Shown in pieces: positions 17,877 through 60,415 of a stretch of 64,000 bases of DNA. Each line of letters opens with the position of its first letter. Within the stretch, counting starts at the first letter, position 1. The stretch is taken from positions 48,604-112,603 of the forward strand of contig JAAYYE010000012.1 in the NCBI GenBank assembly GCA_012515515.1. Reading direction: 5' to 3'. The translations under genes and the position numbers were made by a program. The notes below the pieces were generated by a model. It had not been told where the DNA came from. It ran no database searches and saw only the letters and a program-made list of their open reading frames with translations. This stretch comes from Minisyncoccota bacterium (GTDB lineage: Bacteria > Patescibacteriota > Microgenomatia > UBA1400 > PJMF01).

Positions 17877-19009
17877 TTCTCGCTATCGATACTAGTTGCG
17901 ATGATACCAGTGTCGCGGTGCTGGCTGGCACTCGCGTCTTAGCCAATGTGCAAGCATCTCAAACTAATATTCATCAGCAGTATGGCGGAGTGTTTCCTAC
18001 TTTAGCCAAACAAGCCCACCAAGAACATATTGCTGACTGTGTAGATTTAGCGCTTAAAAGAGCTGGTTTATCGAATAGCAAGGAGCAAAAAACTAACTTG
18101 GACGCTTTAGCCGTCACTGTCGGACCGGGTCTCGCTCCAGCTTTAGAGGTCGGCATTAACTATGCTAAAAAATTAGCGCAAAAGTGGCAGACTCCTCTTA
18201 TTCCCATTAATCACATTGAAGCGCACGCTATTTCTCCACTACTTAATCCACAAACTTGCCAAGCACCGCGCACAGTAAATTTTCCGGTTTTAGCTCTCGT
18301 TATTTCTGGCGGTCATAGTGAATTTATTTTAATTAAAAAAATTGGAGATTATGAGCGCCTCGGCTGGACCGTTGATGATAGCGCTGGCGAATGTCTTGAT
18401 AAAATTGGCCGGATGCTCGATTTGGGTTATCCAGCCGGACCAGTTTTAGAAAAATTGGCAAAAAAAGGCAAGTCAAATCGCTGGCCTTTGCCTTTAGCGA
18501 TGACTGCTGTCGAAAATTTTAATCTTAGTTTTTCTGGACTGAAAACGGCTGGTCATCAGCTAATTAATCAACTCTCAGCAAAACAGCCATTAGATGCCCA
18601 AAGCGTTTGTGATCTAGCAGCCTGTGTGCAAAAACAGGTTTTTGCGCAAATTAATTTCAAACTGGAAAGAATTCTGTTTAGCCCAGATTTAAAGAAAACA
18701 ACTTACCCCAATAAACAATATCTCAAAAAAATTAAGCGCCAAGAAATTCAAGCCCCAGTGACCGAGATCAATGAAGTTTGGCTGGGTGGTGGTGTGGCAG
18801 CTAATATAGTTTTGCGAGCTAGTATTAGAAAAACCTTAAGCAATTACCAAAAAATTACAAAGAAAAAAATTAAACTTTTTTTACCTTATCATAAAAAATT
18901 TTGTGCTGATAATGCTGCCATGATTGCCCTCGTCGCTCAGTTTCGCTCATTGAAAAAAAATTATCATCCTCAAGAGTTAGATCGTCAGCCCAATCTAAAA
19001 ATCGGCTAG
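17855..19009 (+). CDS. tsaD: tRNA N6-adenosine threonylcarbamoyltransferase TsaD (Kae1/YgjD)
   Basis: LAIDTSCDDTSVAVL, HxxxH metal site region (HIEAHA), ASKHP fold; overlaps upstream gene by 22 nt. Confidence 0.85.
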   Translation: MGNKEKLILAIDTSCDDTSVAVLAGTRVLANVQASQTNIHQQYGGVFPTLAKQAHQEHIADCVDLALKRAGLSNSKEQKTNLDALAVTVGPGLAPALEVGINYAKKLAQKWQTPLIPINHIEAHAISPLLNPQTCQAPRTVNFPVLALVISGGHSEFILIKKIGDYERLGWTVDDSAGECLDKIGRMLDLGYPAGPVLEKLAKKGKSNRWPLPLAMTAVENFNLSFSGLKTAGHQLINQLSAKQPLDAQSVCDLAACVQKQVFAQINFKLERILFSPDLKKTTYPNKQYLKKIKRQEIQAPVTEINEVWLGGGVAANIVLRASIRKTLSNYQKITKKKIKLFLPYHKKFCADNAAMIALVAQFRSLKKNYHPQELDRQPNLKIG

Positions 19010-30336: not shown

Positions 30337-32778
30337 TTGAAACAGCTAAAAAAATCCAAGAGCATGCTGAATAAAAAACTTATTAGTAAAAGCCAAAAAA
30401 AGAAGATTGAGAGCCAGAAAATGAAGATTAAGAGCTCTTTTTTATATTGGCAAAAAAAAATCAAAAAAATTTTTTGGCAAAATAAAAAATGGCGCTTTAC
30501 TTGGATGGCTGCCTTGCTGCTCATCATCGCTGTATTAATCTATTTACTAAAAGATTTACCATCACCTACAAAATTAACTTCTTCAGAAAATTACGCTGTT
30601 AGTACGCAAATTTTTGATCGCAATGGTCAGTTGTTGTATGAGGTGTATGGAGACGAAAACCGCACTCCTGTTGATATTGAGTCTTTGCCCGATCATTTGT
30701 TACAAGCCACCATTGCCATTGAAGATAAAAATTTTTATCGACATCATGGTTTAGACATTCGGGGCTTAGTGAGAGCAGCCATCAATAATATCACTGGCGG
30801 CAACACTCAGGGCGGTTCTACAATCACCCAGCAATTGGTAAAAAATGCTTTATTAACTAAAGATAGAACTTTTGATAGAAAAATTAAAGAAGCCTTCTTA
30901 TCATTTTTAACCGAAATCATTTACAAAAAAGAAGACATTTTAGAAATGTATCTTAACTATATTCCTTATGGAGGCACAGCCGTTGGCGTTGAAGCAGCAG
31001 CCAATCAATATTTCAATAAATCAGCCAAAGATTTAACTATGGCTGAAAGTGCTTTATTAGCTGGATTACCAAAAGCACCTAGCACTTATTCGCCTTTTGG
31101 CGCTTATCCAGAAAAAGCTAAAATGAGACAAAAAGAGGTTTTGCGCCGAATGTCTGAAGACGGATACATCAATAAAGACAGATTGAATGAAGTTGAAAAT
31201 GAAACATTAACTTACGCCCTAAAAAAAACCGATATTAAAGCTCCTCATTTTGTCTTTTACATAATCGATTTGTTGCAAAAAGAATACGGTGAAGACACGG
31301 TTAAAACTGGCGGATTGCGCGTCACCACTACCCTCGATTTAGATTTACAAGAAGCGGCTCAAGCTTCTTTATCTGCCGAAATTAATAAGTTAAGTAATTT
31401 AAAAGTTAGTAACGGAGCGGCTTTGGTCACTAAACCAAACACTGGAGAAATCTTAGCAATGATTGGTAGCAAAAATTATTTTGACATGGATCATGATGGA
31501 CAAGTTAATGTAACTATTGCTTTCAGACAGCCTGGCTCATCAATTAAACCAATTATGTATGCCAGTGCTTTTCAGGAAAAGACACTGAATCCAGGCTCAA
31601 TGCTTTTAGACATCTCCACTTGTTTTAGAGTGACTGGTCAAAAGGATTATTGTCCAAAAAATTATAGTGGCGGATTTTCTGGTCCAGTCACGGTCAGAAA
31701 AGCTTTGGGCAATTCTCTGAATATCCCCGCAGTCAAAGCTTTAAGTACTATTGGCGTTGAAAAATTTATTAAACAAGCCAATAAAATGGGCATTACCAAC
31801 TGGGTTGATCCAAGTCAATATGGCTTATCTTTAACTCTGGGAGGCGGAGAAGTCAGAATGGTCGACATGGCAACTGCTTTTGCTGTGATAGCTAACCAAG
31901 GAGTTAAAGTGCCAAGCACAGCCATTTTAGAAGTAAAAAATTACAAAGGTGAAGTTTTGAGCAGTGCTGATTTGGAAACTCGCAAACAAACATTACTCCA
32001 CATGACTGAAAATGAAGAAATCACTGAAGAAATTGATTTAGAAAGAGTTATGCGGCGAGCGCCAGCCTATCTAACTGCCCACATCATGCAAGACAATAGC
32101 GCTCGCCTCATGGCCTTTGGTAGCAATAGCCAGCTAGTAATTAAAGATAAAGTAGTGAGTGCTAAAACTGGCACCACCAACGACCTAAAAGATAATTGGA
32201 CTGTCGGTTTTACTCCAGAATTTTTAAGCATTGTGTGGGTGGGTAATAATGACAATTCTTCGATGAGTTACTTGGCTTCTGGCATCACTGGTGCCGCACC
32301 AATTTGGAATGATATCATGAGCTATATTTTAGAAAATGAACAAATTATTTGGCCTGAGCGTCCAGCCGATGTAAAGATGGCCTATGTCTGTCAAACAGGC
32401 ATGCCAGCTGATCGTGGTTTGGGCAATAATCGTAACGATTGGATGAATAGAAACACTAGTGATTTAACGCTTAAATTCAACGAACAACAGCAAATTTATT
32501 TACAAGAAACTGACCCAGCGCAAACTTGCCAAGCTGGCGCACAAGAGCTTTATTGGGAAGAATCACTACCAAGCTATTCTGGTAGTTTCCAAAAAGAGTT
32601 TTGGATTCGTAAGGAAACTGGACTACCACCTGCCGTTGGCGAAGAAGCCGATGATTTGGTTTTAGAATTACATCAATTTTATTATGATCCAGTTACTAGC
32701 CTCTACTGTGCTGATTGTACTCGACCAATTGATGAAGAAACTGGCGAAACCATTTTTGAAAAAAATTATGTTAATTAG
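30337..32778 (+). CDS. Class A penicillin-binding protein, second paralog, lysine-rich N-terminal tail
   Basis: ATIAIEDKNFYRHHG, QGGSTITQQLVKN (GT51); transpeptidase SSIKP, SLN, KTGTT. Confidence 0.85.
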   Translation: MKQLKKSKSMLNKKLISKSQKKKIESQKMKIKSSFLYWQKKIKKIFWQNKKWRFTWMAALLLIIAVLIYLLKDLPSPTKLTSSENYAVSTQIFDRNGQLLYEVYGDENRTPVDIESLPDHLLQATIAIEDKNFYRHHGLDIRGLVRAAINNITGGNTQGGSTITQQLVKNALLTKDRTFDRKIKEAFLSFLTEIIYKKEDILEMYLNYIPYGGTAVGVEAAANQYFNKSAKDLTMAESALLAGLPKAPSTYSPFGAYPEKAKMRQKEVLRRMSEDGYINKDRLNEVENETLTYALKKTDIKAPHFVFYIIDLLQKEYGEDTVKTGGLRVTTTLDLDLQEAAQASLSAEINKLSNLKVSNGAALVTKPNTGEILAMIGSKNYFDMDHDGQVNVTIAFRQPGSSIKPIMYASAFQEKTLNPGSMLLDISTCFRVTGQKDYCPKNYSGGFSGPVTVRKALGNSLNIPAVKALSTIGVEKFIKQANKMGITNWVDPSQYGLSLTLGGGEVRMVDMATAFAVIANQGVKVPSTAILEVKNYKGEVLSSADLETRKQTLLHMTENEEITEEIDLERVMRRAPAYLTAHIMQDNSARLMAFGSNSQLVIKDKVVSAKTGTTNDLKDNWTVGFTPEFLSIVWVGNNDNSSMSYLASGITGAAPIWNDIMSYILENEQIIWPERPADVKMAYVCQTGMPADRGLGNNRNDWMNRNTSDLTLKFNEQQQIYLQETDPAQTCQAGAQELYWEESLPSYSGSFQKEFWIRKETGLPPAVGEEADDLVLELHQFYYDPVTSLYCADCTRPIDEETGETIFEKNYVN

Positions 32779-32805: not shown

Positions 32806-34068
32806 GTGACAAAAAAATTTAAATTTTTCTTCTTTTTTTTAAGTATCGTCGCTTCTGCTCTTATTCTTTATGCGGGCTTTAGGCTTTGGCAAAACAATTT
32901 AAAATCGCCAATTGGCGATAATTTTTCGTTTAAGAACGTGACAGATTGGTTCAAATTTAAAACAAACCATCAGCAAAAAATTGTTTATGGTTTTTTGCCT
33001 TATTGGAATTTAAATAAAATCAAAGTTCAAGATGAACTCACACATTTAAGCTATTTTGCTCTAGAGGTTGGCGCCGATGGGCAAATCGTCACCCACAGTC
33101 GACCTGGAGAAACTGAACCTGGTTACCGCCAGCTTAATAGTGATGAGTTTTTAAATTTGCTTGACAACAATCAATTTAAAAATGAATTGGTACTAAGTCA
33201 ATTTGACGCATCAACAATTAAACAGTTTTTAGACAACCAGCGGGCTTGGATTACCCTAATCGAACAAATCGACAGTTTATTGCTTGCCTACCCCTTCACG
33301 GGTATTAATCTTGATTTTGAATATCCAGGCGAGGTAAGTGATCAATTACGCCAACAATTTGTTAACTTAGTCATCAGTATTCATCAACATTTAGCAGCTC
33401 GTCAAGAAAAAATTAACTTAAGCATCGATGTTTATGCGAGCGCTGGCAATCAAAATAAAAAATTACTTTGGGACATTAAGCAGCTTGAACCCCATTTAGA
33501 TTACCTAATTGTGATGGCCTATGATTTCCATCGACAAAATTCGACCCAAGCTGGGCCAGGAGCACCTTTGCTCGGTGGACAAGAGCTATGGACAAGCGAT
33601 ATTAATACTTTAATGAAAGGCTTTTTCGAGCAAGTTCCTCGAGAAAAAATTTTGTTAGGGTTGCCATTTTATGGCTATGGCTGGCAAACCGATAGCATAG
33701 ACCCTCGAGCCAATACTTATCCAGGAACTGGTTTCACTGTTAGTTATCAAGAAGCTTTGGCACTCAAAAGTTTAAGTGGTCGTTGGGAAAATTGCCGCAA
33801 TTTGAATCTTTATTGGCAAGAAGAGGCGCTGTCGCCTTTTGCCACTTTAAACTGTCCCAAAGAAAATCCAGGAGGTAATGATAAAACCGAGAATGAAGAA
33901 GAGGCGGAATTACTTAATTATTTAGTTTATTTTGAAAATGCTCAATCTCTGCAATACAAAATAGATTATGCAAAACAATTAGACTTAGCTGGAATTGCTA
34001 TTTGGGCACTAGGATATGAGGGAGAAAGTCGAGATTTGTGGGAAGTGGTGAAGAGCTTGAATAATTAA
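32806..34068 (+). CDS. Glycoside hydrolase family 18 (chitinase/peptidoglycan hydrolase-like), secreted/membrane-anchored
   Basis: N-terminal TM/signal; catalytic GINLDFEYPG (DxxDxDxE) motif; MAYDFH; YGYGW. Confidence 0.6.
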   Translation: MTKKFKFFFFFLSIVASALILYAGFRLWQNNLKSPIGDNFSFKNVTDWFKFKTNHQQKIVYGFLPYWNLNKIKVQDELTHLSYFALEVGADGQIVTHSRPGETEPGYRQLNSDEFLNLLDNNQFKNELVLSQFDASTIKQFLDNQRAWITLIEQIDSLLLAYPFTGINLDFEYPGEVSDQLRQQFVNLVISIHQHLAARQEKINLSIDVYASAGNQNKKLLWDIKQLEPHLDYLIVMAYDFHRQNSTQAGPGAPLLGGQELWTSDINTLMKGFFEQVPREKILLGLPFYGYGWQTDSIDPRANTYPGTGFTVSYQEALALKSLSGRWENCRNLNLYWQEEALSPFATLNCPKENPGGNDKTENEEEAELLNYLVYFENAQSLQYKIDYAKQLDLAGIAIWALGYEGESRDLWEVVKSLNN

Positions 34069-34080: not shown

Positions 34081-36105
34081 TTAAAAATCTTTGCTAAATT
34101 GCTTCGCTAAGAAGAAAGACCAGGTTCCCGTAGCTACAAAAAACAAGCCTATTACCAATAAACTTAAGGTGTTAAATGTTGAGCCCGCATTATAGGTACC
34201 ACTTTGGGTAGAAACCACAGTTTCTCTAATACTGGCTGTTGCTTCTTCAATAGGTTCGACTGTGGGAACGGGAGTTGGCGTTACATCTTTAACTGGTAAA
34301 TAAGGATCGCCAGTGCCATGAGGCAAGTCTGAGCCTGTTTGAGCGCTAGCAATAGGTCTCGTTTCATTTTCAATATTACTGCCAGGAGGAGAAACTGTAA
34401 AATTATAGCTTTTAGACACTTCTTGACCGGTTCCTGGATCGATGTAGGTATAATTAATGCTGTGCTCTCCAGGGCTTAAGTTCTTTTTTAAACTGGCTAT
34501 ATCGACCTCAACATTGCCATCGGCATCTGTTTCTACAATGGTTTCAATGGCAGTGTCTGAATGAATCTCGATTTTAACAGTGACATTGGGTGGTAAATTA
34601 GCCTTAATGATTGGCTGGGTGCTTGTTATAACATTATCTTGAGCTGTGCTAGCTTCATCAACTTCGTTTAAATCTAGTATTCGCTGACTATCAGCCAAAG
34701 CTGTTATCTCCTCCTCACCCCATTCATTCTCTAATTGGTTGTTTTGTGCTAAATTGGCATCAGTGCTTGCTTCTTCTTGGATAACTTCGTGTGTTTCCAG
34801 CTCTTCACTATCAACAGAATTTTCGCTACTTTCAAACTCCTCAGCCAACAATTCTTCTCTGGTGGTTAATGATTCTTCGCTAGCCTCCTGACCAACAATA
34901 ATTTCTGGCACCGGTTGAGCGCCAGCCACATTCACCACTCTATTAGAGACTGAATTTAAATCAATTCCTTGAACTTTGATTGATAAAACAGTATCTTCAC
35001 TTACTTGTGGGTAAGCATTAAGACTTAAATTAAAAGCATTGGCTAAAGACACTGCCCAACTTCCAGAGGATTTAACAATAGTTGATAAAGCGCCAGCTCC
35101 CTCAGGAGTAACAAAGACAATTGCCCCCTCTCCAGGCTGACCACTTATCTGACCAACTGTTCCATAGATTGTTTGATTATTTGGAGAAGCATTGCTTAAA
35201 CTACTTGCGGTTGTGATTTGATAAGGAGCACCATTGTTATCAAAACTTGAATTGCTGCCAGTGCTTAAATTGTAATAGTAGCTTGTATTTGGCTCTAAAC
35301 CTCTGACTGTAATATGGTGTAAACGATACGGCTTAATTACACCAGACAACTGATCACGATCATCACTAGCCTGTTGTTTTATATCATTAGCGCTTGGACC
35401 ATATTTAACAGAAGCAATAATCTCTTCATCAGTATAAAAAGAAACTGTAAAGGCTTTGTCTGTGACATTGCTGACAACAATATTTTGCGGAGTTGTGGCT
35501 GGTGTCGCTCTCGGAGCAAACAGCCCGGTGCCATTTCCAAACAAGAGCACTCCCGCCACCATGGAAACAATTAAAATCAGTAAACCCAAAAGTGTTGGGA
35601 TTTTTTTCTTAACTGTTTTATTATCTGTTTTTTTATCTGTTTTTCCGCCTGAAATTTTCCATTTTTTTGAGGGTTTTTCTTTAGCTTTTTTGCCAATTTC
35701 TTCAGTTGGTACAACTTTATCTTTATTTGAATTTGCTTTTGGCATTGTCTTTGCGGGTGAGCTTGGAGCAACGCTTGGAGTTGGAGTTTGAACTGGGGCT
35801 GGAATTGGAGCTACAGCTTGAGCTGGGACTACAACCTTGCCTGCAGCTGATGTTGGACTGGTAGCTGATGCTACACCTGGCGGAGAGGAACCCGCTGGAG
35901 CGACTACTTTTGGAGTTGCGCTCGGCAATTTTACTTGTTTTGTTAGATTAATTTGCGCGGGATTGGCTTTTTGAGTATTAACCAACGGATTTGGCATTTT
36001 TACAGGGGTATTGGTTTGAGCAGTTGCGGATTGAGGAGGCACCGGCTTTGGCAAATTTAAACCTAGTTGAGGATTAGTTGGTTGATTTTGATTTAAAATT
36101 TGCAT
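34081..36105 (-). CDS. Large surface protein: Pro/Thr/Ala-rich N-terminal region, TM, fibronectin type III-like domain, acidic region, C-terminal TM anchor
   Basis: Low-complexity PTPS-rich N-terminus; FTVSFYTDE...YGPS...HHITVRGLEPNTSYYY Fn3/PAP-N-like block; C-terminal hydrophobic LLVIGLFFVATGTWSFFLA. Confidence 0.4.
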   Translation of the reverse strand: MQILNQNQPTNPQLGLNLPKPVPPQSATAQTNTPVKMPNPLVNTQKANPAQINLTKQVKLPSATPKVVAPAGSSPPGVASATSPTSAAGKVVVPAQAVAPIPAPVQTPTPSVAPSSPAKTMPKANSNKDKVVPTEEIGKKAKEKPSKKWKISGGKTDKKTDNKTVKKKIPTLLGLLILIVSMVAGVLLFGNGTGLFAPRATPATTPQNIVVSNVTDKAFTVSFYTDEEIIASVKYGPSANDIKQQASDDRDQLSGVIKPYRLHHITVRGLEPNTSYYYNLSTGSNSSFDNNGAPYQITTASSLSNASPNNQTIYGTVGQISGQPGEGAIVFVTPEGAGALSTIVKSSGSWAVSLANAFNLSLNAYPQVSEDTVLSIKVQGIDLNSVSNRVVNVAGAQPVPEIIVGQEASEESLTTREELLAEEFESSENSVDSEELETHEVIQEEASTDANLAQNNQLENEWGEEEITALADSQRILDLNEVDEASTAQDNVITSTQPIIKANLPPNVTVKIEIHSDTAIETIVETDADGNVEVDIASLKKNLSPGEHSINYTYIDPGTGQEVSKSYNFTVSPPGSNIENETRPIASAQTGSDLPHGTGDPYLPVKDVTPTPVPTVEPIEEATASIRETVVSTQSGTYNAGSTFNTLSLLVIGLFFVATGTWSFFLAKQFSKDF

Positions 36106-36233
36106 ACCAATAACAAGACAGTCAAAGTGTCTTGTTTTACTCTATACGAATTGAAAATAGATCACAAGGCGAAAAAAAACCAAACATTGCTTGAAAAGCA
36201 AATAACAGTCCTAAGAGGCCATGTGATCTAAAA

Positions 36234-36716
36234 TTAGTATTCGGCAAAATTATTTTCTTCGATAATTTCTTCTGCAGCTTCATCTGCCACTTCAGCTTCA
36301 TATTCAAATTCATCCGCAACTTCCGCTTCATATTCGGCTTCATCTTCAACTACATTTTCACCTTCGCCTTCATTATTTATTGATAAATCAGTGATATTCG
36401 TTAAAACACCTTCTTCCTTACTCTTAGCATCGCCAAACTTAAAATAGACAAAAATGGGAAAGGACTCTAATTCTTCATCGCTTACTAGTCGTTTTTCTTC
36501 AATTAGTGAGAAAACGTCGGTTTCTAAGCGAGGAACTAGTGGTTTAGCAATTGCTGTTAAATGTGAATCAATTTGCACTTTTTTTTGAGAAGTGAAAATA
36601 CTAATGGCAGTCCAAAGCAAAATCAGCACTAAAAACAAAACGCCAACCCATAGAATGCTTTTTTGACGACGCAAGCGATTCAACTCTTGTTTTAGTCTGG
36701 CTTTTTCTTTATTCAT
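36234..36716 (-). CDS. Hypothetical single-TM protein with highly acidic repetitive C-terminus
   Basis: TM ILWVGVLFLVLILLWTAISIF; C-terminal EYEAEVADE repeats encoded by 27-nt tandem repeat. Confidence 0.3.
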   Translation of the reverse strand: MNKEKARLKQELNRLRRQKSILWVGVLFLVLILLWTAISIFTSQKKVQIDSHLTAIAKPLVPRLETDVFSLIEEKRLVSDEELESFPIFVYFKFGDAKSKEEGVLTNITDLSINNEGEGENVVEDEAEYEAEVADEFEYEAEVADEAAEEIIEENNFAEY

Positions 36717-37348
36717 TCTTTATCCAAAGTTGAACTTAATAAATAATGCGGCAAAGAAACTTTTAATTGAGCTGCTAAATTATCAGACTCTGTCATCTTT
36801 TCTATTAAAACCTGATCAACCACCACCACTTGTCGTAAATTCATAATTTTTTCAATAAATTCTCTAATGTCTATATAAGAGCCAATAACACCTACATTTA
36901 TGCTTAAAAATTCACGCTGATAATCCCCAAAATCGCCACTTAGCAGTTCAGTTTCAACTGTTTCTGGCACTTTTTGAACACTCATTCGGTCAATCGCAAA
37001 TTCTCCCTCTCCTGCTAATTTTTCAATTTTTTTCAAGGATTTAACTAAATCTAGTTGTCTAGGAATTGCCTCATCTAATAAATAAAATTGAGGTTGATAA
37101 AGATCATATTGTTCCTGAGCTGAGGCTAAGCTGGCTAATTTTAGATCCAGCTGTTTATTAATCTCTTTTTTATCAGCAATTTCTTTAACCAAGTCAGCCA
37201 TAGTAATTAAAGTCGGACGTATAGCGAAAAGAGCAAAAAAAATGACGACTATTACTGATAAAATTAATTCAATTGATACTCTGGCTACCGGTTTTTGATA
37301 GAAATCCATTAAAACTGTTGCTAATTGTTCTTGTTTGCTTTTTGCCAT
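36713..37348 (-). CDS. PilO-like bitopic membrane protein (TM + coiled coil + C-terminal domain)
   Basis: Architecture only: N-terminal TM, coiled coil, about 100-aa C-domain; 4-nt overlap with downstream gene. Confidence 0.25.
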   Translation of the reverse strand: MAKSKQEQLATVLMDFYQKPVARVSIELILSVIVVIFFALFAIRPTLITMADLVKEIADKKEINKQLDLKLASLASAQEQYDLYQPQFYLLDEAIPRQLDLVKSLKKIEKLAGEGEFAIDRMSVQKVPETVETELLSGDFGDYQREFLSINVGVIGSYIDIREFIEKIMNLRQVVVVDQVLIEKMTESDNLAAQLKVSLPHYLLSSTLDKE

Positions 37349-37357
37349 AACTTTTAA

Positions 37358-37957
37358 TTATTTATTCGTTTGTTCGCTAGATTTATTGTTTGCGACAATT
37401 TTTGCCTGCATATCAAACATTAAGCCTGGTAAATCCTCACCTCTAGATTCAATGCTACCTATGCTCACCTCTTCGAAGTGTGGCGATAATTGCACATTTC
37501 TAACTAAAATATCAAAAGCTGTTTGAGATAGGGCTATGCCTGAAAATACCACTTCGCTGGGTTTAATTGTCAACTCATCCAAGATAACATTGCTTGGAAT
37601 TGTTTCGTTTAATAGCGGAAAAATTTCTACTAAATTGGCTTCTTGCTGCAGCTGCTTGATATCGGTCATTTGAGCTTGAACAAACAGGAAGCGTTTTTCT
37701 AGATCGCCATAAGATTCTATAGCCATTTTTTGTTGACTTATAGCTGAATTTAGATCTGTTACTTGCCGATCTAAAACAAAACGGGTTAAAAAACTAATAA
37801 TTACCACTAATTGAGTAAAAATTACGATATAACGCCCTATAGAGACAGTCCACTTTAGAGATCGACCGATGGCTGTTTCAAAAAAAGGATCCTTGGGTAT
37901 TAAGTTGACATCTAAAACAACCGCAGTTCCTTTTTGCTTTTTTCTAGCTTTGGGCAT
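37358..37957 (-). CDS. PilN-like protein (type IV pilus/competence assembly)
   Basis: N-terminal VLDVNLIPKDP resembling PilN INLLP motif followed by TM and coiled coil. Confidence 0.35.
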   Translation of the reverse strand: MPKARKKQKGTAVVLDVNLIPKDPFFETAIGRSLKWTVSIGRYIVIFTQLVVIISFLTRFVLDRQVTDLNSAISQQKMAIESYGDLEKRFLFVQAQMTDIKQLQQEANLVEIFPLLNETIPSNVILDELTIKPSEVVFSGIALSQTAFDILVRNVQLSPHFEEVSIGSIESRGEDLPGLMFDMQAKIVANNKSSEQTNK

Positions 37958-38016
37958 TAATCCTATTGTAAATTAATTAAAGAGAGAATAAAAGAGCTTC
38001 TTCCTTGAGTAATCAA

Positions 38017-39705
38017 CTATTTACCCAATTCACCATCGATTGAGCTATCTAAAAGCACCTCTTCAGAATCACTAAAAACCGATTGCCATTTACCAAACTT
38101 AGCAATTAAACTATTGAAGTATTTCAATTCTTTAACATCAAACAAAATAGAGAAATAAATATAGGCCAACAAAGCAATAGTGCCTGTCGATACTGTCAAG
38201 GCTATTAAATCAACAGTTCTAGTGGTATCGAAAACAACTTCGTCGAGAATCTTAAAGGGTAAATATAAAAAGACAGCCATAAAAAAACTAGCCAAGAGTA
38301 TCTTTAACTGTGGTAAAAAGAAATCTTTAAAATTAAAGCATTTAATTTTTTTATGCAACAATATTAACATCAACAATAGCTCAACAAATGCGGTCAGGGT
38401 AATCGCGATGCCAATGGCATATACACCCCAATTAAAAACATAAATTCCCAGAATGTTAACAATTATGTAAGTTGCCATGGAGATCATTGACACTAAAAAC
38501 GGAGAATGACTATCCTTTAAGGCATAAAAACTACGCACTAAGAGTTGCACCATGGCTTGAGCGGTGATGGAAATAGCTATCAAGGCAACAATTTTGCCCG
38601 TGGTAACAGTAGTTTGCCAGGGGAAGTTGGCTGTTCCAAATATTAAGCGCACTGCCGGAACACGTAAAATTAATAAAAGCACCGAGGCCGGCATGGCTAG
38701 AAAAGAAATTTGATTGAGAGACTGAATTAGCAACTTATTAAATTTTTGCCTATTCTCCTCTGATGATTCTTCAGATAAAAAAGGAAATGATGCCTGACTA
38801 ATTGGCACACCAAAAAAACGAATTGGCAAGGTCATTAAACGCCGAGCTAAAGTAATAATCACAAAACTTAAATCTCCAACGCTAGTCGCAAAAAAACCTA
38901 AGGCTAAATTTTGTACTTCACTGATGCCCACGGTTAATAATCGAGGAGGCATCATTTTAAATAGTTTTTTAACACCTGCAAAACGAATATTAAGCAGAGG
39001 TTTCCAGCGATAACCTGTTTTCAGCACGAGGGGGAGCTGAACTAAAAAATGTAAAGCAGCTCCGATCACCACTCCTAAACCCGCTGCATAAATTCCTAAG
39101 TATTTAGCTAAAAATACTGAGCTTAAGATAATTCCCAGATTATAAACAAGAGGGGCTAGCGCAGGAACAATAAAACGCTGATAAGCCTGCAAAATACCTG
39201 TTAAAAAATTAGAAATGGCAAAGAAAAATTGAGCAAATAACATTATTCTGGTTAAATTGACAGCAGTGTCGATTTGCTCAGGAGTAAACTCAACTCCAGT
39301 GCGAGCCATGGTAATGGGACGAGCAAAAATGAAAGCAATAACGGAAAAAATGGCAAAAATTAATAAGACTAAGTTCATCACTATCGATGTAAATTGAAAA
39401 GCTTTCTGCTCGTTTTTTTTCTTTAATTCTGCAAATAAAGGAATAAAAGCAGCTGAGAGAGCTCCCAAAACAATGAGCTGAAACAATAGATCTGGGATTT
39501 GAAAAGCAATTTGAAAAGCCTCATAGGCTTGTTGACTGGCTAACTCATTAAAAAACAGCTTAATTAAAACTCTTTCTCTCAATAAACCCAACAATGAAGA
39601 AGAAATATTAGCCACAGTAATAATAAATGCTGCAGACAAAATAGAGTTTTGTTTTTTAGCTAACCAGTGAGAGTTGCTTTGAAAAAGTTTATTAAAAGAA
39701 ATCAT
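38017..39705 (-). CDS. murJ: Lipid II flippase MurJ (MviN)
   Basis: 14-TM MOP-superfamily pattern with conserved N-terminal SRxLGxxRExxxAxxFG-like motif (SLLGLLRERVLIKLFFNELASQQAYEAFQIAFQIPDLLF). Confidence 0.7.
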   Translation of the reverse strand: MISFNKLFQSNSHWLAKKQNSILSAAFIITVANISSSLLGLLRERVLIKLFFNELASQQAYEAFQIAFQIPDLLFQLIVLGALSAAFIPLFAELKKKNEQKAFQFTSIVMNLVLLIFAIFSVIAFIFARPITMARTGVEFTPEQIDTAVNLTRIMLFAQFFFAISNFLTGILQAYQRFIVPALAPLVYNLGIILSSVFLAKYLGIYAAGLGVVIGAALHFLVQLPLVLKTGYRWKPLLNIRFAGVKKLFKMMPPRLLTVGISEVQNLALGFFATSVGDLSFVIITLARRLMTLPIRFFGVPISQASFPFLSEESSEENRQKFNKLLIQSLNQISFLAMPASVLLLILRVPAVRLIFGTANFPWQTTVTTGKIVALIAISITAQAMVQLLVRSFYALKDSHSPFLVSMISMATYIIVNILGIYVFNWGVYAIGIAITLTAFVELLLMLILLHKKIKCFNFKDFFLPQLKILLASFFMAVFLYLPFKILDEVVFDTTRTVDLIALTVSTGTIALLAYIYFSILFDVKELKYFNSLIAKFGKWQSVFSDSEEVLLDSSIDGELGK

Positions 39706-39776
39706 GGCTAAAGCTAATTATAGAGAAAATAAAGAAAAAATAAATCTAAGAATTAATTTGCTCAACTTGTGGGATC

Positions 39777-39805
39777 TTGTATGATAGTCTTTTTTCTTGT
39801 ATAAT
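39777..39805 (+). promoter_or_regulatory. Sigma70-like promoter of rpsT (TTGTAT-17-TATAAT)
   Basis: -35 39777-39782, -10 39800-39805, AAAGGAAA RBS before ATG 39837. Confidence 0.45.
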
Positions 39806-39836
39806 CGCCTCTTGTTAAATTGAAAAGGAAATAACA

Positions 39837-40073
39837 ATGCCAATTTTAAAAGGCGCTAAAAAAGCACTCAGAGTTAGTAAGAAAAAAAACCTCATTAATC
39901 GTAGACTGAAATCGCAAATGAAAACAGCTATTGATCAGGTCAAAAAAGAAATTAATCCAAAAAACGTATCTTTGGCTAGTAGCAAAATCGATCGAGCTGT
40001 GAAAAAAAATATTATCCATAAAAATAAAGCAGCTCGCGTCAAATCTCAACTTGCTAAGCTTAAAAGCAAATAA
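39837..40073 (+). CDS. rpsT: 30S ribosomal protein S20
   Basis: MPILKGAKKALR...IHKNKAARVKSQLAKL typical S20. Confidence 0.85.
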   Translation: MPILKGAKKALRVSKKKNLINRRLKSQMKTAIDQVKKEINPKNVSLASSKIDRAVKKNIIHKNKAARVKSQLAKLKSK

Positions 40074-40078
40074 AGACC

Positions 40079-41899
40079 ATGGCTCAGCTTTCGCGAATCA
40101 GAAATTTTTCTATTATTGCTCATGTCGATCACGGAAAAACCACTTTAACCGATGTTTTTTTGCGCTTAACCAATGCGGTGAGCAAATCGAAATTCCACGA
40201 ACGAATGATGGACTCTAATCCCATCGAACAAGAAAAAGGAGTGACTATTAAACTGGCTCCAGTGCGGATGAATTATAAAGGATATATCCTTAATTTAATT
40301 GATACACCAGGACATGTTGATTTTGCTTATGAAGTTAGTCGCTCGCTGGCCGCTTGCGAAGGAGCCGTTATGTTGGTTGATGCTACTCAGGGCGTACAAG
40401 CCCAAACCCTAGCCAACTATCAAAAGGCCAAGGATCTTGGTTTAAGCATTATTCCAGTGATCAATAAAATTGATTTGCCTTCAGCAAATATTGAACAATG
40501 TTTGCTAGAAATGATGGAAATTTTTAATTTTAAAGAAGATGAAATTTTGCAAGTAAGTGCTAAAACTGGTTCAGGCGTAGAAAAAATTTTAGAGACAATT
40601 ATTGAGAAAGTTCCACCACCTCAATTAACCCTGATCCAAGAAAGAACAAACAATAAATCAAACGCTAATGATGAAAATAAAAGCACTCAAGCCTTAATTA
40701 TCACTTCCAAATTCGACAATCATCAAGGAGCCATTGCCTATGTCAGAGTGGTTCGGGGTCAAATCGATAAAGAAAGCCTGCATTTAATATCTACCAACAC
40801 TAGTTTTAATCCAATTGAAATTGGCGTTTTTACTCCTGATCCGACCAAAAAAGAATTTCTTAGCGCTGGTGAGGTGGGTTACATTGCTACAGGATTAAAA
40901 GATACCAGTCAATTAAAAATTGGTGACACCATTACCAAGACCAAAGAAAGAAAATACGCTGGTAGCCTAGCTGGATATCAAGAACCACAAGTGATGGTGT
41001 TTATGGATCTTTATCCAATTGATAGTGCAGATTTTACTGAATTGAAGGAAGCGATGGCCAAATTACGCTTGCACGACAGTGCTCTTCAATATCAGGCCAC
41101 TAATTCGCCAGCTCTTGGCAATGGTTTAAGAGTGGGCTTTTTAGGTATTTTTCACGCAGAAATAGTTCAGGAAAGATTGCTTCGAGAATTTAATTTAGCA
41201 TTAATTAGCACTGCTCCTTCAATCACCTATCAAGTCACATTGTCCAATAATAATAGTATATTGATTCACAACCCCACAGAATTGCCTGATTCCAGTCAAA
41301 TTAAAGAAATTAAAGAGCCAATTTGTTCCCTCAATATTTTTACTCCAGAAAAATATTTATCCACAATTATGAAGTTTTGCCAAGAAAGACGAGCTGTCTT
41401 AAAAAACAGCTTGCGCGCAGGTAGTCGCAATCAACTTTACTATGAAATTCCTTTTGCAGAATTAGTTAGTGATTTTCACGATCAACTAAAATCAATCACT
41501 TCTGGTTTTGCCTCCATGGATTATCAACTAAGTCATTTTTCAGCGGTGGATGCGGTTAAAGTAGATATCGTAATTAATTTCAACAAAATAGAAGCGCTCA
41601 GCTTTATCACTATTAAAAGTAATGCTGATAAAAAAGCTAGAGCTATCGTCACCAAACTTAAAGAAGTTATACCTCGCCACATGTTTGAGGTGCCCATTCA
41701 AGCAGCCATCGGCGGCAAAATCATTGCTCGGGAAACCATTAAGGCCTTCCGCAAGGATGTGACTGCTAAGCTTTATGGTGGCGATCGCACCAGAAGAATG
41801 AAGCTCCTAAAAAAGCAAAGCATTGGTAAAAAGAGAATGAAACAGTTTGGACAAGTCCAACTGAATCAAGAAGCTTTTTTAGCTATTCTAGAAAATTAG
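40079..41899 (+). CDS. lepA: Elongation factor 4 (LepA)
   Basis: IRNFSIIAHVDHGKTTL G-domain, LepA-specific C-terminal domain. Confidence 0.92.
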   Translation: MAQLSRIRNFSIIAHVDHGKTTLTDVFLRLTNAVSKSKFHERMMDSNPIEQEKGVTIKLAPVRMNYKGYILNLIDTPGHVDFAYEVSRSLAACEGAVMLVDATQGVQAQTLANYQKAKDLGLSIIPVINKIDLPSANIEQCLLEMMEIFNFKEDEILQVSAKTGSGVEKILETIIEKVPPPQLTLIQERTNNKSNANDENKSTQALIITSKFDNHQGAIAYVRVVRGQIDKESLHLISTNTSFNPIEIGVFTPDPTKKEFLSAGEVGYIATGLKDTSQLKIGDTITKTKERKYAGSLAGYQEPQVMVFMDLYPIDSADFTELKEAMAKLRLHDSALQYQATNSPALGNGLRVGFLGIFHAEIVQERLLREFNLALISTAPSITYQVTLSNNNSILIHNPTELPDSSQIKEIKEPICSLNIFTPEKYLSTIMKFCQERRAVLKNSLRAGSRNQLYYEIPFAELVSDFHDQLKSITSGFASMDYQLSHFSAVDAVKVDIVINFNKIEALSFITIKSNADKKARAIVTKLKEVIPRHMFEVPIQAAIGGKIIARETIKAFRKDVTAKLYGGDRTRRMKLLKKQSIGKKRMKQFGQVQLNQEAFLAILEN

Positions 41900-42820: not shown

Positions 42821-43444
42821 ATGAAAAAACCAGTAAGACAAATCGATGATTATTCAGAAGTCATGCGACAAGAGACTCCAAGTAATAATTGTCTAAGAGC
42901 TTTTATCCCCAAACCTAAAAAAATTTCTTTTGAAATTCAAGATCATGAGGAAAAAATTGTTCTAGTGCTACGACAGCATCCAATTACTCAGATTAAAAGC
43001 GTGCTCATGATCCTTTTCTTGTTTGTATTTCTACCGTTCTTACTAAAAGTAGCTGGCTTGACTGCTGTTCTTCCAGATAAATTTAGAGTTGCTGGAAATA
43101 TTTTCCTTTTCTTTCTAGCTATTGGTATAGCTTTCCGTTCCTTTCTAATGTGGTTTTTTAACGTTTACATTATTACCGATGAAAGAATTATTGACGTTGA
43201 TTTTATATCAATGATTTATAAAAATATTTCCACTGCAAAAATAGATAATATCGAAGATATTACCAAAAAATCCTCAGGTATCGTTGCTAATCTTTTTGAT
43301 TATGGCACGATCTTAATTCAAACAGCTGCAACCAAGAATGAGTTTGAATTTGATCATGTTCCTCATCCAGCAAAAGTAGTTAAATTGCTAAATGAATTAG
43401 TGATCGAAGAAGAAAGAGAAAAAATTGAAGGGAGAGTTAATTAG
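42821..43444 (+). CDS. Membrane protein with bacterial PH (bPH_2/YdbS-like) domain
   Basis: Two TM helices followed by ITDERIIDVDF...GTILIQTA pattern typical of membrane-flanked bPH domain. Confidence 0.45.
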   Translation: MKKPVRQIDDYSEVMRQETPSNNCLRAFIPKPKKISFEIQDHEEKIVLVLRQHPITQIKSVLMILFLFVFLPFLLKVAGLTAVLPDKFRVAGNIFLFFLAIGIAFRSFLMWFFNVYIITDERIIDVDFISMIYKNISTAKIDNIEDITKKSSGIVANLFDYGTILIQTAATKNEFEFDHVPHPAKVVKLLNELVIEEEREKIEGRVN

Positions 43445-43668
43445 TGCCAGAATTTTATCTTAATCAAAATTTTATTTCTATCTTACTTAAAATTTTTTTT
43501 GTGCTTGGAGCAAGTTTTTATCTGGTTTATTCTGTAGTTGTTGTCCGACAAATTACAGTCATGAAAAAAACTTTAATTACTGGTTTTAGCAGTGTGATTA
43601 ATTTGTTGGGAATGATTAATCTAGTTATGGCTGCAATACTCTTGCTTGCCTTTATATTGTTTCTCTAA
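43444..43668 (+). CDS. Small hypothetical membrane protein (2 TM)
   Basis: ORF only; overlaps stop of upstream gene. Confidence 0.25.
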   Translation: MPEFYLNQNFISILLKIFFVLGASFYLVYSVVVVRQITVMKKTLITGFSSVINLLGMINLVMAAILLLAFILFL

Positions 43669-43678: not shown

Positions 43679-43806
43679 CTTGGTTCTGGCCTCGACCTAT
43701 CTTCGCAAGGGGAAACCCCTAACTATTGTCAGCGCTGAGACGTTTCAAGACTCTGTTCGGGATGGGAAGAGTTGGGACCATCTCGCTCCAGAGACCAGAA
43801 CCAAAG
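43679..43806 (-). rRNA. rrf: 5S ribosomal RNA
   Basis: Minus-strand ...GATGGTCCCAACTCTTCCCATCCCGAACAGAGTCTTGAAACG... with helix I pairing CCTTTGGTTCTGG/CCAGAACCAAGG. Confidence 0.85.
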
Positions 43807-43904
43807 GTTTTTTATTTATTTGTTAATTATATAGCACAACTGTGCTTAAACATGTGAAGAAGTCAACCGTCACCCAATAATAGTCTTGAGAATTAACGAA
43901 AACT

Positions 43905-46823
<2,919 letters not shown>

Positions 46824-47020
46824 CGAATCATTGAAGTCTTCATTTTTTCTCGACTATTATTGAATAACAGTTGATAAAATTCTTCACATGTTAAAGAACA
46901 GTTGTTTGCCAAACAAACATTTTAACAATATTTGGTGGCTACTTATTAGCCTCTAGAAGTTCCGTTAGGAAAACATCCAAAGCCTAATAAGCAAACACCA
47001 ATTTAATTTTAATTATAGAG

Positions 47021-47094
47021 TGGACCCTAAGGGGCTCGAACCCTTGACCTCCACATTGCAAATGTGGCGCTCTAGCCAACTGAGCTAAGGGCCC
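47021..47094 (-). tRNA. tRNA-Ala (UGC)
   Basis: GGGCCCT...CCACA-TTTGCAA-TGTGG...GGGTTCGAGCCCC...AGGGTCC-A with G3.U70 identity pair. Confidence 0.9.
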
Positions 47095-58776: not shown

Positions 58777-58887
58777 AATTTATTTTCAGCAGTATTCAAA
58801 TATCTAGTATGGCTGATGAGAAAAGCGATTGCAAATAGGATTTGAGGCATGCAAACAAAATTATTATATTTAAGATAAAATAAGGTA

Positions 58888-60412: not shown

Positions 60413-60415
60413 TTT

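What the first reader, a model, noticed from the sequence alone, without database searches (positions are those of the whole stretch)
36234..39705. murJ operon continues into pilN-like and pilO-like genes, an acidic-repeat TM protein and a 674-aa Fn3 surface protein
Downstream of murJ on the minus strand is a gene with a PilN-like N-terminus (VLDVNLIPKDP before a TM). A PilO-like bitopic protein follows with a 4-nt overlap. After that comes a TM protein whose C-terminus is made of EYEAEVADE repeats. The large Pro/Thr-rich, Fn3-containing surface protein (34081-36105) comes last. No PilM ATPase is adjacent, as it usually would be. The linkage of lipid II flipping with a PilN/O-type inner-membrane alignment module and an adhesin-like protein may reflect a cell-surface or attachment apparatus. 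Episymbiotic CPR bacteria rely on type IV pili-like systems.
Basis: partly seen in the sequence, partly recalled or inferred. Interest (0 to 1): 0.55.

Follow-up and report, generated by a model that had tools for sequence, protein, structure and literature searches.

The report
Split-off pilus alignment gene module
In this ultra-small (CPR/Microgenomates) bacterium, two genuine type IV pilus "alignment" proteins (PilN, PilO) are encoded away from the other pilus genes, in a fixed four-gene unit with two uncharacterised envelope proteins, and their position after the cell-wall flippase gene murJ looks like a lineage-specific rearrangement rather than a deep functional link.

Summary
The five co-directional minus-strand genes exist as described: murJ, a 199-aa PilN-like protein, a 211-aa PilO-like protein, a 160-aa TM protein ("X") and a 674-aa Fn3 protein ("F"). 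PilN and PilO pass every test I ran. These were Pfam scores above the curated cut-offs, family profiles whose only significant PDB hits are PilN or PilO, and AlphaFold models whose best fold matches are GspL/PilN and PilO/GspM domains. An FtsL/DivIC assignment is rejected.

The unit conserved in all ~175 related loci examined is pilN-pilO-X-F. In the window's clade (80/80 species genomes) murJ sits co-directionally upstream. In sister clades murJ is divergent and rpsT (S20) sits upstream instead, which a single inversion of the two-gene murJ-rpsT segment would explain. This weakens the proposed coupling to lipid II flipping.

No pilM, pilin or PilB/T gene occurs within about 10 kb in any locus (2.26 Mb). 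PilN still keeps an invariant PilM-binding-type N-terminal motif. A published Microgenomates genome lists PilM at its pilus locus but no PilN/O.

X's acidic repeat is not conserved. Some F orthologs carry LPXTG-type wall anchors.

Best reading: a trans-encoded pilus alignment subcomplex with two new accessory partners. This is a new variant of a known kind, of moderate interest.

The parts
38017..39705 (-). murJ (lipid II flippase), 562 aa. It is the co-directional upstream neighbour of pilN in this clade only.
   Evidence: Pfam MurJ E=4.2e-78; TIGR01695 equivalog 273 bits, above the 235.6 cut-off. It lies upstream and co-oriented in 80/80 clade loci but is divergent in sister clades.
37358..37957 (-). 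PilN-family protein, 199 aa. Layout: disordered cytoplasmic N-terminus, TM helix (~41-61), long coiled coil, then a C-terminal beta-beta-alpha-beta-beta domain.
   Evidence: Pfam PilN PF05137 39 bits (cut-off 22.8). 418 homologs found, several of them named PilN by their sources. AF2 pLDDT 73. Foldseek top hits are PulL/EpsL/XcpY and T. thermophilus PilN periplasmic domains.
37883..37912 (-). Codons for the PilN N-terminal motif D-V-N-L-I-P-K-D-P-F (residues 16-25), a putative PilM-binding peptide.
   Evidence: N18, P21, D23, P24 and F25 are invariant in 29 homologs of 45-84% identity. Distant members carry (I/V)NLLP(K/Q)(E/D)EF. [quoted passage not shown]
36713..37348 (-). PilO-family protein, 211 aa. 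Layout: conserved cytoplasmic N-helix, TM plus coiled coil (20-84), then a 2x(alpha-beta-beta) domain.
   Evidence: Pfam PilO PF04350 24.4 bits (cut-off 22). The family profile hits only PilO chains in the PDB (3jc8_Oa 4.4e-5, 2rjz, 5uvr). AF2 pLDDT 72.6. Foldseek top hits are PilO, Amuc_1100, PulM and EpsM.
36432..36716 (-). Conserved part of protein X (residues 1-95): a basic cytoplasmic stretch 'L..LRR.K', a TM helix (~22-42) and an extracytoplasmic segment 'KPL.P.L...EL..FPIY'. It overlaps the pilO stop by 4 nt.
   Evidence: Alignment of 7 and of 77 orthologs. Homologs in sister clades score E=2e-10 to 5e-14. The median pilO-X distance is -4 nt over 76 loci. No Pfam or NCBIfam family matched.
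36234..36431 (-). Variable low-complexity tail of X. It includes the acidic AEYEAEVADE repeat (36275-36351).
   Evidence: TRF finds a 30-nt period with 2.6 copies. In orthologs the tails are acidic, S/T/P-rich or absent.
36106..36233 (-). X-F spacer. It holds a weak hairpin plus T-run, a conserved promoter-like element (CGCCTTGTGATCT at 36159-36171; TATAGA at 36141-36146) and a hairpin (36113-36135) just before F's ATG.
   Evidence: MFE -42 kcal/mol, z=-5.6. The stretch is nearly invariant in 7 close relatives and occurs only once in the window. It is absent from more distant loci, and in most sister-clade loci X and F overlap by 4 nt.
34081..36105 (-). Protein F, 674 aa. Layout: variable Pro-rich N-extension, conserved signal-anchor 'KKIPT.LGL' (~170-194), Fn3 (206-299), second beta-domain (~312-395), acidic linker, Ig-like region (478-571; sub-threshold Big_13 match), P/T linker and a C-terminal TM anchor (~645-667).
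   Evidence: Pfam Pur_ac_phosph_N E=1.9e-9 and Big_13 E=5.9e-4 (20.7 bits, below the cut-off of 27). Ortholog alignments. Sister-clade homologs score E=1e-24 to 2e-80 over the full length. Some ortholog C-termini pass the LPXTG_anchor model TIGR01167; the window's does not.
39837..41899 (+). rpsT (S20, 39837-40073) and lepA (40079-41899). They are divergent, invariant neighbours and mark the inversion breakpoint region.
   Evidence: Pfam. The order lepA-S20 | murJ-pilN holds in the window's clade, against lepA-murJ | S20-pilN in sister clades.

Best explanation
The 199-aa and 211-aa proteins are the PilN and PilO components of this organism's type IV pilus (T4P) or DNA-uptake machine. They form the bitopic membrane 'alignment' heterodimer. 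In this Microgenomates-type CPR lineage the pair is encoded away from pilM, pilB/C/T and the pilins. It forms an invariant, largely translationally coupled four-gene unit, pilN-pilO-X-F.

Proposed mechanism:
- PilN's conserved cytoplasmic N-terminal peptide (INLxPKDPFF) docks a PilM encoded elsewhere (inferred).
- PilN and PilO pair through their coiled coils and ferredoxin-like domains outside the membrane. The folds are shown here; the pairing is inferred from the family.
- X, a small bitopic protein, and F join them (inferred). F is a double-anchored Fn3/Ig protein that in some relatives carries an LPXTG-type wall-sorting signal.
- X and F would tie the membrane platform to the cell wall. 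That is the job PilP and the peptidoglycan-binding PilQ AMIN domains do in diderm bacteria, which CPR lack.

murJ is simply the upstream gene in this clade. It was put there by an inversion of the two-gene murJ-rpsT segment (inferred from comparing gene orders). Read-through from murJ probably drives pilN-pilO-X here, as rpsT does in sister clades.
For: - Family membership: Pfam PilN 39 bits (cut-off 22.8) and PilO 24.4 bits (cut-off 22). The PilO family profile hits only PilO chains in the PDB. The sister-clade PilN profile has M. xanthus PilN as its only significant hit, E=1.6e-5.
- Folds: the PilO-like model matches PilO 3jc8/2rjz/5uvr, Amuc_1100, PulM and EpsM. The PilN-like model matches PulL/EpsL/XcpY and T. 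thermophilus PilN domains, best TM 0.80 and rmsd 1.8 A over 84 residues.
- N-terminal motif: invariant N18, P21, D23, P24, F25. It is canonical (I/V)NLLP in distant members. PilN's first eight residues bind PilM in Thermus (PMC6325625).
- Module conservation: pilN-pilO-X-F is intact in 9 loci with called genes, in 80 GTDB species genomes and in 80 metagenome loci. Median gaps are pilN-pilO 2 nt and pilO-X -4 nt. X and F homology across clades was confirmed by HMM.
- Literature: PilB/T/C/M/N/O are widespread in CPR (PMC6744442). A closed Microgenomates genome lists PilA, minor pilins, PilD, PilB, PilT, PilC and PilM at one locus, with no PilN/O (PMC7143001).
- Wall link: F orthologs ending in LPKTG or LPESG pass the LPXTG_anchor model. 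In P. aeruginosa, PilP links PilO to the PG-binding AMIN domains of PilQ (PMC5285504).
Against: - No T4P gene lies within ~10 kb of the module in any of 177 sources (2.26 Mb). The T4P connection therefore rests on family membership and the PilM-type motif, not on context.
- I could not show that this genome, or any genome carrying the module, encodes PilM, PilB, PilC or pilins.
- PilN/O homologs are known to work outside T4P, for example in the H. pylori flagellar cage (PMC10823254).
- The roles of X and F are inferred from synteny and domain architecture only. Neither matches PilP or any T4P/T2SS family.
- The window's own F lacks the LPXTG-like motif and probably has its own promoter.
- Both structural models have only moderate confidence (pLDDT ~73).
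Confidence: 0.62

Rival explanations
1. The PilN/PilO pair has been co-opted into a pilus-independent envelope machine. Together with X and F it would form a membrane-to-wall scaffold that works with peptidoglycan or cell-surface glycopolymer synthesis (MurJ, class A PBPs, LytR-CpsA-Psr, PMT). It might dock an actin-like protein other than PilM, such as FtsA.
For: - The module is never next to T4P genes in ~175 loci.
- Its neighbours are repeatedly envelope genes: murJ in all clades; PBP1 and GH18; LytR_cpsA_psr and PMT; a Wzy_C glycan cluster.
- Some F orthologs are sortase-type substrates. Sortase substrates are attached via lipid II (established knowledge, not tested here).
- There is a precedent for co-option of PilM/N/O, in the H. 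pylori flagellar motor (PMC10823254).
- PilM is structurally similar to FtsA (PMC5285504).
Against: - murJ orientation and immediate adjacency are not conserved.
- rpsT, lepA and dnaJ are equally constant neighbours, so the neighbourhood reflects general synteny.
- The PilM-type N-terminal motif is retained.
- Literature indicates that Microgenomates have PilM and T4P genes but report no other PilN/O. The simplest reading is that this pair serves the pilus.
Confidence: 0.15
2. murJ, pilN, pilO, X and F form one functional operon, in which lipid II flipping is mechanistically coupled to the PilN/O module.
For: - The genes are on the same strand. The murJ-pilN gap is 59 nt in the window and has a median of 44 nt.
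- No terminator was detected between murJ and pilN.
- The arrangement is invariant in 80/80 species genomes of the clade.
Against: - In sister clades with homologous PilN, PilO, X and F, murJ is on the opposite strand and rpsT is the co-directional upstream gene.
- In L096 two other genes intervene. In L102-L104 and L165 murJ is not adjacent at all.
- A single inversion of the murJ-rpsT pair explains the difference between the two layouts.
- The murJ-pilN spacing is looser than the coupled pilN/pilO/X junctions.
Confidence: 0.08
3. The 199-aa and 211-aa proteins are divisome-type bitopic coiled-coil proteins (FtsL/FtsB/DivIC-like) or T2SS GspL/GspM, rather than PilN/PilO.
For: - A weak DivIC match (E=0.039, 14.2 bits) and a weak GspM match (E=0.016) on the TM plus coiled-coil part of the 211-aa protein.
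- The best structural matches of the PilN-like domain are GspL periplasmic domains.
Against: - Both weak hits are far below their cut-offs (28.9 and 60 bits).
- Both proteins have a C-terminal ferredoxin-like domain that FtsL/FtsB/DivIC do not have, according to my own knowledge of those families; no such chain appears among the top 50 fold matches.
- The 199-aa protein has only ~40 cytoplasmic residues, so it lacks the large PilM-like cytoplasmic domain that GspL carries (own knowledge of the family).
- Pfam assigns PilN and PilO above their cut-offs.
Confidence: 0.03

Closest known systems
T4aP alignment subcomplex PilM-PilN-PilO(-PilP) of Pseudomonas, Myxococcus and Thermus
   Same: - PilN and PilO belong to the same families by sequence and have the same folds: a bitopic protein with a coiled coil and a ferredoxin-like domain.
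- PilN keeps the short conserved cytoplasmic N-terminal peptide of the INLLP type.
- pilN and pilO are adjacent, in the order N then O.
   Different: - pilM is not adjacent, and no pilP or pilQ is present.
- pilN-pilO is instead followed by two unrelated proteins (X and F) and lies far from all other pilus genes.
- The N-terminal motif is extended to INLxPKDPFF.
- PilO has a strongly conserved cytoplasmic N-terminal helix.
CPR and monoderm T4P loci with contiguous pilM-pilN-pilO (e.g. Saccharibacteria TM7x loci 1 and 2, PMC12206443; CPR-wide families in PMC6744442)
   Same: - The same component families, in organisms thought to lack an outer membrane and found to lack a secretin.
- PilN and PilO were already recognised as widespread in CPR.
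   Different: - In those systems M, N and O co-localise with pilB, pilC and the pilins.
- Here N and O are uncoupled from M and fixed to X and F.
- The published Microgenomates T4P locus lists PilM without N/O (PMC7143001).
Helicobacter pylori flagellar-cage PilM/PilN/PilO homologs (PMC10823254)
   Same: PilN/O homologs encoded away from any pilus genes. In that case they are next to housekeeping and envelope genes (miaB, lpxJ).
   Different: - H. pylori keeps pilM in the same operon and has no T4P at all, and the function there is flagellar.
- I found no flagellar genes in the window. CPR generally have T4P genes (PMC6744442).
PilP plus the PilQ AMIN domains, as the link from the alignment complex to peptidoglycan (PMC5285504)
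   Same: - The position in the gene order after pilO.
- The proposed role of connecting PilN/O to the wall.
- F has beta-sandwich domains, and some orthologs have a predicted covalent wall anchor.
   Different: - There is no sequence similarity to PilP or PilQ.
- X is bitopic, not a lipoprotein.
- F is anchored by TM helices or an LPXTG-type signal and is not a secretin. The analogy is functional and inferred.

Membership tests
PilN (Pfam PF05137) | Sequence match to the family model above the curated threshold | tested here: met
   39.0 bits against a cut-off of 22.8, E=8.4e-10, residues 113-187. All but one of the 120 listed homologs carry PF05137. The sister-clade profile hits M. xanthus PilN at 1.6e-5. 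The window-clade profile alone reaches only E=0.95 against 3jc8 PilN.
PilN (Pfam PF05137) | Bitopic topology: short cytoplasmic N-terminus, one TM helix, a coiled coil and a ferredoxin-like extracytoplasmic domain | tested here: met
   The AF2 model has residues 1-21 disordered, helix 29-119 and beta-beta-alpha-beta-beta at 124-187. Foldseek matches PulL 5hl8 (TM 0.80), EpsL, XcpY and T. thermophilus PilN 4bhq.
PilN (Pfam PF05137) | Conserved N-terminal INLLP-type peptide that binds PilM | tested here: inconclusive
   The motif is present and invariant: V-N-L-I-P-K-D-P-F here, and (I/V)NLLP in distant members. Binding to a PilM could not be tested, and no PilM was located.
PilO (Pfam PF04350) | Sequence match to the family model above the curated threshold | tested here: met
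   24.4 bits against a cut-off of 22, E=3.6e-5, which is marginal. However, the family profile hits only PilO chains in the PDB: 4.4e-5, 0.01 and 0.084.
PilO (Pfam PF04350) | TM helix, coiled coil and a 2x(alpha-beta-beta) domain | tested here: met
   AF2 secondary structure is H20-84 followed by alpha-beta-beta-alpha-beta-beta. Foldseek top hits are PilO 3jc8_Oa at 1.4e-6, 2rjz and 5uvr, then Amuc_1100, PulM and EpsM.
Type IV pilus machine (system-level membership) | Co-occurrence with PilM, PilB, PilC, prepilin peptidase and pilins in the same genome | not testable with these tools
   None of these is present in the 64-kb window, in ~10 kb beyond its right edge, or in 2.26 Mb of related flanks. 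Whole genomes could not be scanned. The literature supports T4P genes including PilM in Microgenomates.
Type IV pilus machine (system-level membership) | pilM-pilN-pilO gene adjacency | tested here: not met
   pilM is adjacent in none of the ~175 loci.
FtsL/FtsB/DivIC division proteins | Match to the DivIC/FtsB/FtsL models; a small (~100 aa) TM plus leucine-zipper protein with no globular domain (the size and domain description is from my own knowledge of these families) | tested here: not met
   DivIC scores 14.2 bits against a cut-off of 28.9. Both proteins have a C-terminal alpha/beta domain, and no FtsB/FtsL/DivIC chain appears among the fold matches.
LPXTG sortase-anchored surface protein (TIGR01167), for protein F | C-terminal LPXTG-like motif, hydrophobic helix and basic tail that score above the model cut-off | tested here: not met
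   The window's F C-terminus ('GTYNAG', TM, 'AKQFSKDF') gives no hit. Orthologs L108 (LPKTG, 25.7 bits) and L144 (LPESG, 20.4 bits) pass the cut-off of 15.9. Other [LIVT]PxSG variants do not hit.
MurJ (TIGR01695), for the upstream gene | Equivalog model score above the cut-off | tested here: met
   273 bits against 235.55, covering positions 2-502 of the 506-position model.

The most novel reading that the evidence does not exclude
PilN-PilO-X-F is a self-contained envelope machine that is independent of the pilus. It would be a membrane-to-cell-wall scaffold, with F covalently wall-anchored in many lineages. The PilN/O alignment module would have been co-opted into it, as in the H. pylori flagellar cage, to organise peptidoglycan or surface-polymer assembly, or some other structure, in Microgenomates.
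Probability: 0.15. Interest if true: 0.75.

Novelty: new variant of a known kind. Interest (0 to 1): 0.42.

Why it matters
How a type IV pilus machine is held in register with the cell wall in bacteria without an outer membrane, PilP or PilQ is poorly understood. CPR bacteria are thought to depend on these pili for attachment and DNA uptake.

If the reading here is right, a very large uncultured radiation uses two previously undescribed proteins as fixed partners of PilN/O. One is a ~90-aa conserved bitopic protein. The other is an Fn3/Ig protein with a membrane anchor and, in some lineages, a sortase-type wall anchor. These are concrete candidates for the missing link between platform and wall. 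The finding also gives annotators a rule: in these genomes, look for PilN/O next to rpsT and murJ, not at the pilus locus.

It also shows that 100% conserved co-orientation within a clade (murJ-pilN) can come from a single inversion rather than from functional coupling.

Tried and rejected
- **Window-clade PilN profile against PDB sequences.** It gave only a marginal PilN hit (E=0.95). This was resolved by structure prediction and by the sister-clade profile.
- **Promoter and terminator consensus scan of 33.9-40.2 kb.** The counts equalled those of shuffled sequence, so it was uninformative.
- **Search for pilins, PilB/T Walker A boxes and PilM-like N-termini by motif.** Nothing was found in the window or in 176 loci.
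- **Attempts to see beyond the window.** The dnaJ product is not on record. Beyond the right edge there are only glycan-synthesis genes, on a 692-kb JGI contig.
- **Locating PilM in the same genome.** This was not possible.
- **Family assignment for X and F.** Pfam and NCBIfam on X orthologs gave no consistent family. F against PDB sequences gave no hit. The PilN N-terminal 70 aa against the PDB gave no hit.
- **Metagenome scan with 10 very divergent PilN sequences.** I repeated it with 5 sequences.
- **Literature.** I found no paper linking PilN/PilO with MurJ, and none using the word INLLP.
- **FtsL/DivIC and GspL/GspM readings.** Considered and rejected; see the rival explanations.
- **The X-F spacer as a conserved RNA structure.** Rejected. 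The big hairpin's left arm exists only in the window and L010, whereas the conserved stretch looks like a -35/-10 promoter.

Full report
**1. Observation**

ORF listing confirms five co-directional minus-strand genes:
- murJ, 38017-39705
- a 199-aa protein, 37358-37957
- a 211-aa protein, 36713-37348
- a 160-aa protein ("X"), 36234-36716
- a 674-aa protein ("F"), 34081-36105

murJ is a bona fide MurJ: Pfam E=4e-78, and the TIGR01695 equivalog scores 273 bits against a cut-off of 235.6.

The 4-nt overlap lies between the 211-aa gene and X. The 199-aa and 211-aa genes are 9 nt apart. murJ and the 199-aa gene are 59 nt apart, and X and F are 128 nt apart.

X's acidic repeat is a 30-nt unit present in 2.6 copies at 36275-36351.

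The window has about 36% GC and a housekeeping gene set typical of a CPR genome. Among the ~55 ORFs I scanned against Pfam there is no PilM, PilB, PilC, PilT or pilin.

**2. Are they PilN and PilO?**

Yes, on every test I could run.

The 199-aa protein:
- It scores 39 bits on Pfam PilN, against a cut-off of 22.8.
- Its relatives are already named PilN by NCBI and JGI in Pacebacteria and Woesebacteria MAGs.
- An AlphaFold model (pLDDT 73) has a disordered N-terminal peptide, a TM plus long coiled-coil helix, and a β-β-α-β-β domain.
- The best PDB fold matches of that domain are the periplasmic domains of PulL, EpsL, XcpY and Thermus PilN. The top match has TM 0.80 and rmsd 1.8 Å over 84 residues.

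The 211-aa protein:
- It scores 24.4 bits on Pfam PilO, against a cut-off of 22.
- Its relatives are likewise named PilO by the sources.
- A profile of 32 family members hits only three PDB sequences, all of them PilO, the best at 4.4e-5.
- Its model (pLDDT 72.6) has the α-β-β-α-β-β domain.
- Fold matches are PilO 3jc8, 2rjz and 5uvr, then PilO-like Amuc_1100, PulM and EpsM.

No FtsB, FtsL or DivIC chain appears among the top 50 fold matches, and the DivIC Pfam hit (14 bits against a cut-off of 28.9) covers only the TM and coiled coil.

**3. What is conserved**

The most conserved part of PilN is not the outer domain. It is the cytoplasmic peptide I-N-L-x-P-K-D-P-F-F (N18, P21, D23, P24 and F25 are invariant), together with the TM helix and the juxtamembrane segment. 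More distant members carry (I/V)NLLP(K/Q)(E/D)EF.

[quoted passage not shown] That INLLP is the canonical motif is from my own knowledge. This conservation implies a PilM-type cytoplasmic partner encoded elsewhere.

**4. Gene context**

- In nine loci fetched around homologs, PilN and PilO are followed by a small TM protein with no Pfam hit on record. Next comes a large protein that carries Pur_ac_phosph_N and/or Big_13 in eight of the nine and no Pfam hit in L009.
- A scan of GTDB species genomes found 126 genomes with a relative. In the best 80, HMMs built from the orthologs show lepA(−) S20(−) | murJ(+) PilN PilO X F without exception wherever the contig is long enough.
- Median gaps are 44 nt (murJ-pilN), 2 nt (pilN-pilO), −4 nt (pilO-X) and 101 nt (X-F).
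- An exhaustive HMMER search shows the PilN family extending smoothly to 2,030 clusters at 50% identity.
- Context changes in the more distant members, that is, in four further look-ups (L092/L093, L094, L095, L096) and 80 metagenome loci. The dominant layout there is lepA(−) murJ(−) | S20(+) PilN PilO X F. Exceptions have dnaJ or a UvrD-like helicase upstream.
- X and F in these loci are true homologs of the window's proteins: X at E=2e-10 to 5e-14, and F at 1e-24 to 2e-80 over the full length. In most of them X and F overlap by 4 nt.

The conserved unit is therefore pilN-pilO-X-F. The two layouts differ by one inversion of the two-gene murJ-rpsT segment between lepA and pilN. murJ is a conserved neighbour, as are rpsT and lepA, but it is co-transcribed with pilN only in the window's clade.

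**5. Where is the rest of the pilus?**

- No prepilin signal, PilB/T Walker A box or PilM-like N-terminus occurs in 2.26 Mb from 177 sources.
- The window's genome matches a 692-kb JGI contig. The 10 kb beyond the right edge holds only glycan-synthesis genes.
- I could not scan whole genomes.
- PilB/T/C/M/N/O families are widespread in CPR and often co-localise (PMC6744442).
- Saccharibacteria have pilM-N-O at both of their T4P loci (PMC12206443).
- The closed Microgenomates genome Ch65 has a single T4P locus with PilA, minor pilins, PilD, PilB, PilT, PilC and PilM. PilN and PilO are not listed (PMC7143001).

The simplest reading is that this lineage encodes its only PilN/O in the module described here.

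**6. X and F**

X:
- Only the first ~95 residues are conserved. They comprise a basic cytoplasmic stretch, a TM helix and an outer segment "KPL.P.L…EL..FPIY".
- The acidic tail varies between lineages or is absent.

F:
- It has a variable Pro-rich N-extension, absent in some orthologs, followed by a very conserved signal-anchor "KKIPT.LGL…G.GTG.F.PRATP.TTP".
- Next come an Fn3 domain with an almost invariant "DDRDQL.G" loop and a second β-domain.
- An Ig-like domain (Big_13 or Big_6) is optional. A P/T linker and a C-terminal hydrophobic anchor complete the protein.
- In sister clades the C-terminus reads "PSTE.G-[LIVT]P.[ST]G", then a TM helix, then a basic tail.
- Orthologs with LPKTG or LPESG pass the curated LPXTG-anchor model. 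Other variants and the window's degenerate "GTYNAG" do not.

Neither X nor F matches PilP, PilQ or any T4P/T2SS family.

In the window's closest relatives the X-F spacer carries a nearly invariant promoter-like element and a hairpin just before F's ATG. F may therefore be transcribed separately in these genomes.

**7. Mechanism**

Shown:
- family membership and folds of PilN and PilO
- the conserved PilM-type peptide
- the invariant four-gene unit
- the topology and domain make-up of X and F

Inferred:
- PilN docks a PilM encoded in trans.
- PilN and PilO heterodimerise.
- X and F join them and tie the platform to the wall. This role is analogous to PilP plus the PG-binding AMIN domains of PilQ in P. 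aeruginosa (PMC5285504).

The main rival is that the module has been co-opted for a non-pilus envelope function, as PilM/N/O were in the H. pylori flagellar cage (PMC10823254). The module's constant separation from T4P genes and its envelope-gene neighbours keep this rival alive, at roughly 15%.

**8. Verdict**

The PilN/PilO assignment is supported. The murJ coupling is a clade-specific juxtaposition. The new result is the fixed PilN-PilO-X-F module, uncoupled from pilM, across a large CPR radiation. This is a new variant of a known kind and of moderate interest.

Noticed in passing
window 43684-47094 (-): 23S rRNA (43910-46822), 5S rRNA (43684-43799) and tRNA-Ala (47020-47094) lie together with no 16S gene beside them. 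The next gene upstream is a VirD4/TrwB-like ATPase (47242-49581). The rRNA genes therefore appear to be unlinked.
   Followed up: partly
window 36106-36233 (-): The X-F spacer folds strongly (MFE -42 kcal/mol, z=-5.6). It holds a promoter-like element (CGCCTTGTGATCT ... TATAGAGT) and a hairpin before F's ATG. The element is nearly invariant in the 7 closest relatives, absent from more distant ones, and occurs only once in the window.
   Followed up: yes
L108, L144 and other sister-clade loci; window 34084-34218: F orthologs end in a [LIVT]Px[ST]G motif, a TM helix and a basic tail. The LPKTG and LPESG versions pass the LPXTG cell-wall-anchor model. The window's copy has a degenerate 'GTYNAG' and does not pass.
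   Followed up: yes
window 38017-40073 compared with L094, L098, L107 and others: The murJ and rpsT pair is inverted between clades: S20(-) murJ(+) here, against murJ(-) S20(+) in sister clades. This swaps which gene sits co-directionally upstream of pilN.
   Followed up: yes
window 16710-17876 (+): A single ORF combines a Sua5/YciO/YrdC (TsaC-type) domain with a TsaE domain. It lies directly upstream of tsaD (17855-19009). This appears to be a fusion of t6A-pathway proteins.
   Followed up: no
window 42821-43668 (+): A 207-aa multi-TM protein and a 74-aa DUF5657 protein form a pair. The pair is found close to lepA in all the relatives whose gene tables were examined. Its function is unknown.
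   Followed up: partly
window 22536-25103 (-), 30337-32778 (+), 32806-34068 (+): Two class A PBPs (transglycosylase plus transpeptidase) and a GH18 glycosyl hydrolase flank the module. The PBP plus GH18 pair downstream of F is also present in L001, and a PBP is present in L009, but not in more distant relatives.
   Followed up: partly
L003 13574-20579: A giant ORF (4,475 aa, no Pfam hit) directly follows F in a relative with 61% PilN identity.
   Followed up: no
L010-L089 (record titles): Many contigs that carry this CPR-specific block are titled 'uncultured Pseudomonadales', 'Limisphaerales', 'Methylococcaceae' or 'Lentimicrobiaceae' in the public records. The complete genome CP011212.1 is titled 'candidate division TM6'. 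These are probably taxonomic mislabels or binning errors.
   Followed up: no
L075 and L077 (JAACWQ01 contigs 10 and 17): One MAG carries two copies of the whole lepA-S20-murJ-pilN-pilO-X-F block, on two contigs. This could be a strain mixture or a real duplication.
   Followed up: no
window 56653-64000 and L090/L091: A large surface-glycan cluster lies about 20 kb from the module and continues beyond the window's right edge. It includes a 707-aa Wzy_C protein, a DegT aminotransferase, GT2 and GT4 enzymes, WecG, a radical SAM enzyme and a 1,039-aa PQQ beta-propeller protein. In L008 a similar cluster directly follows the module.
   Followed up: partly
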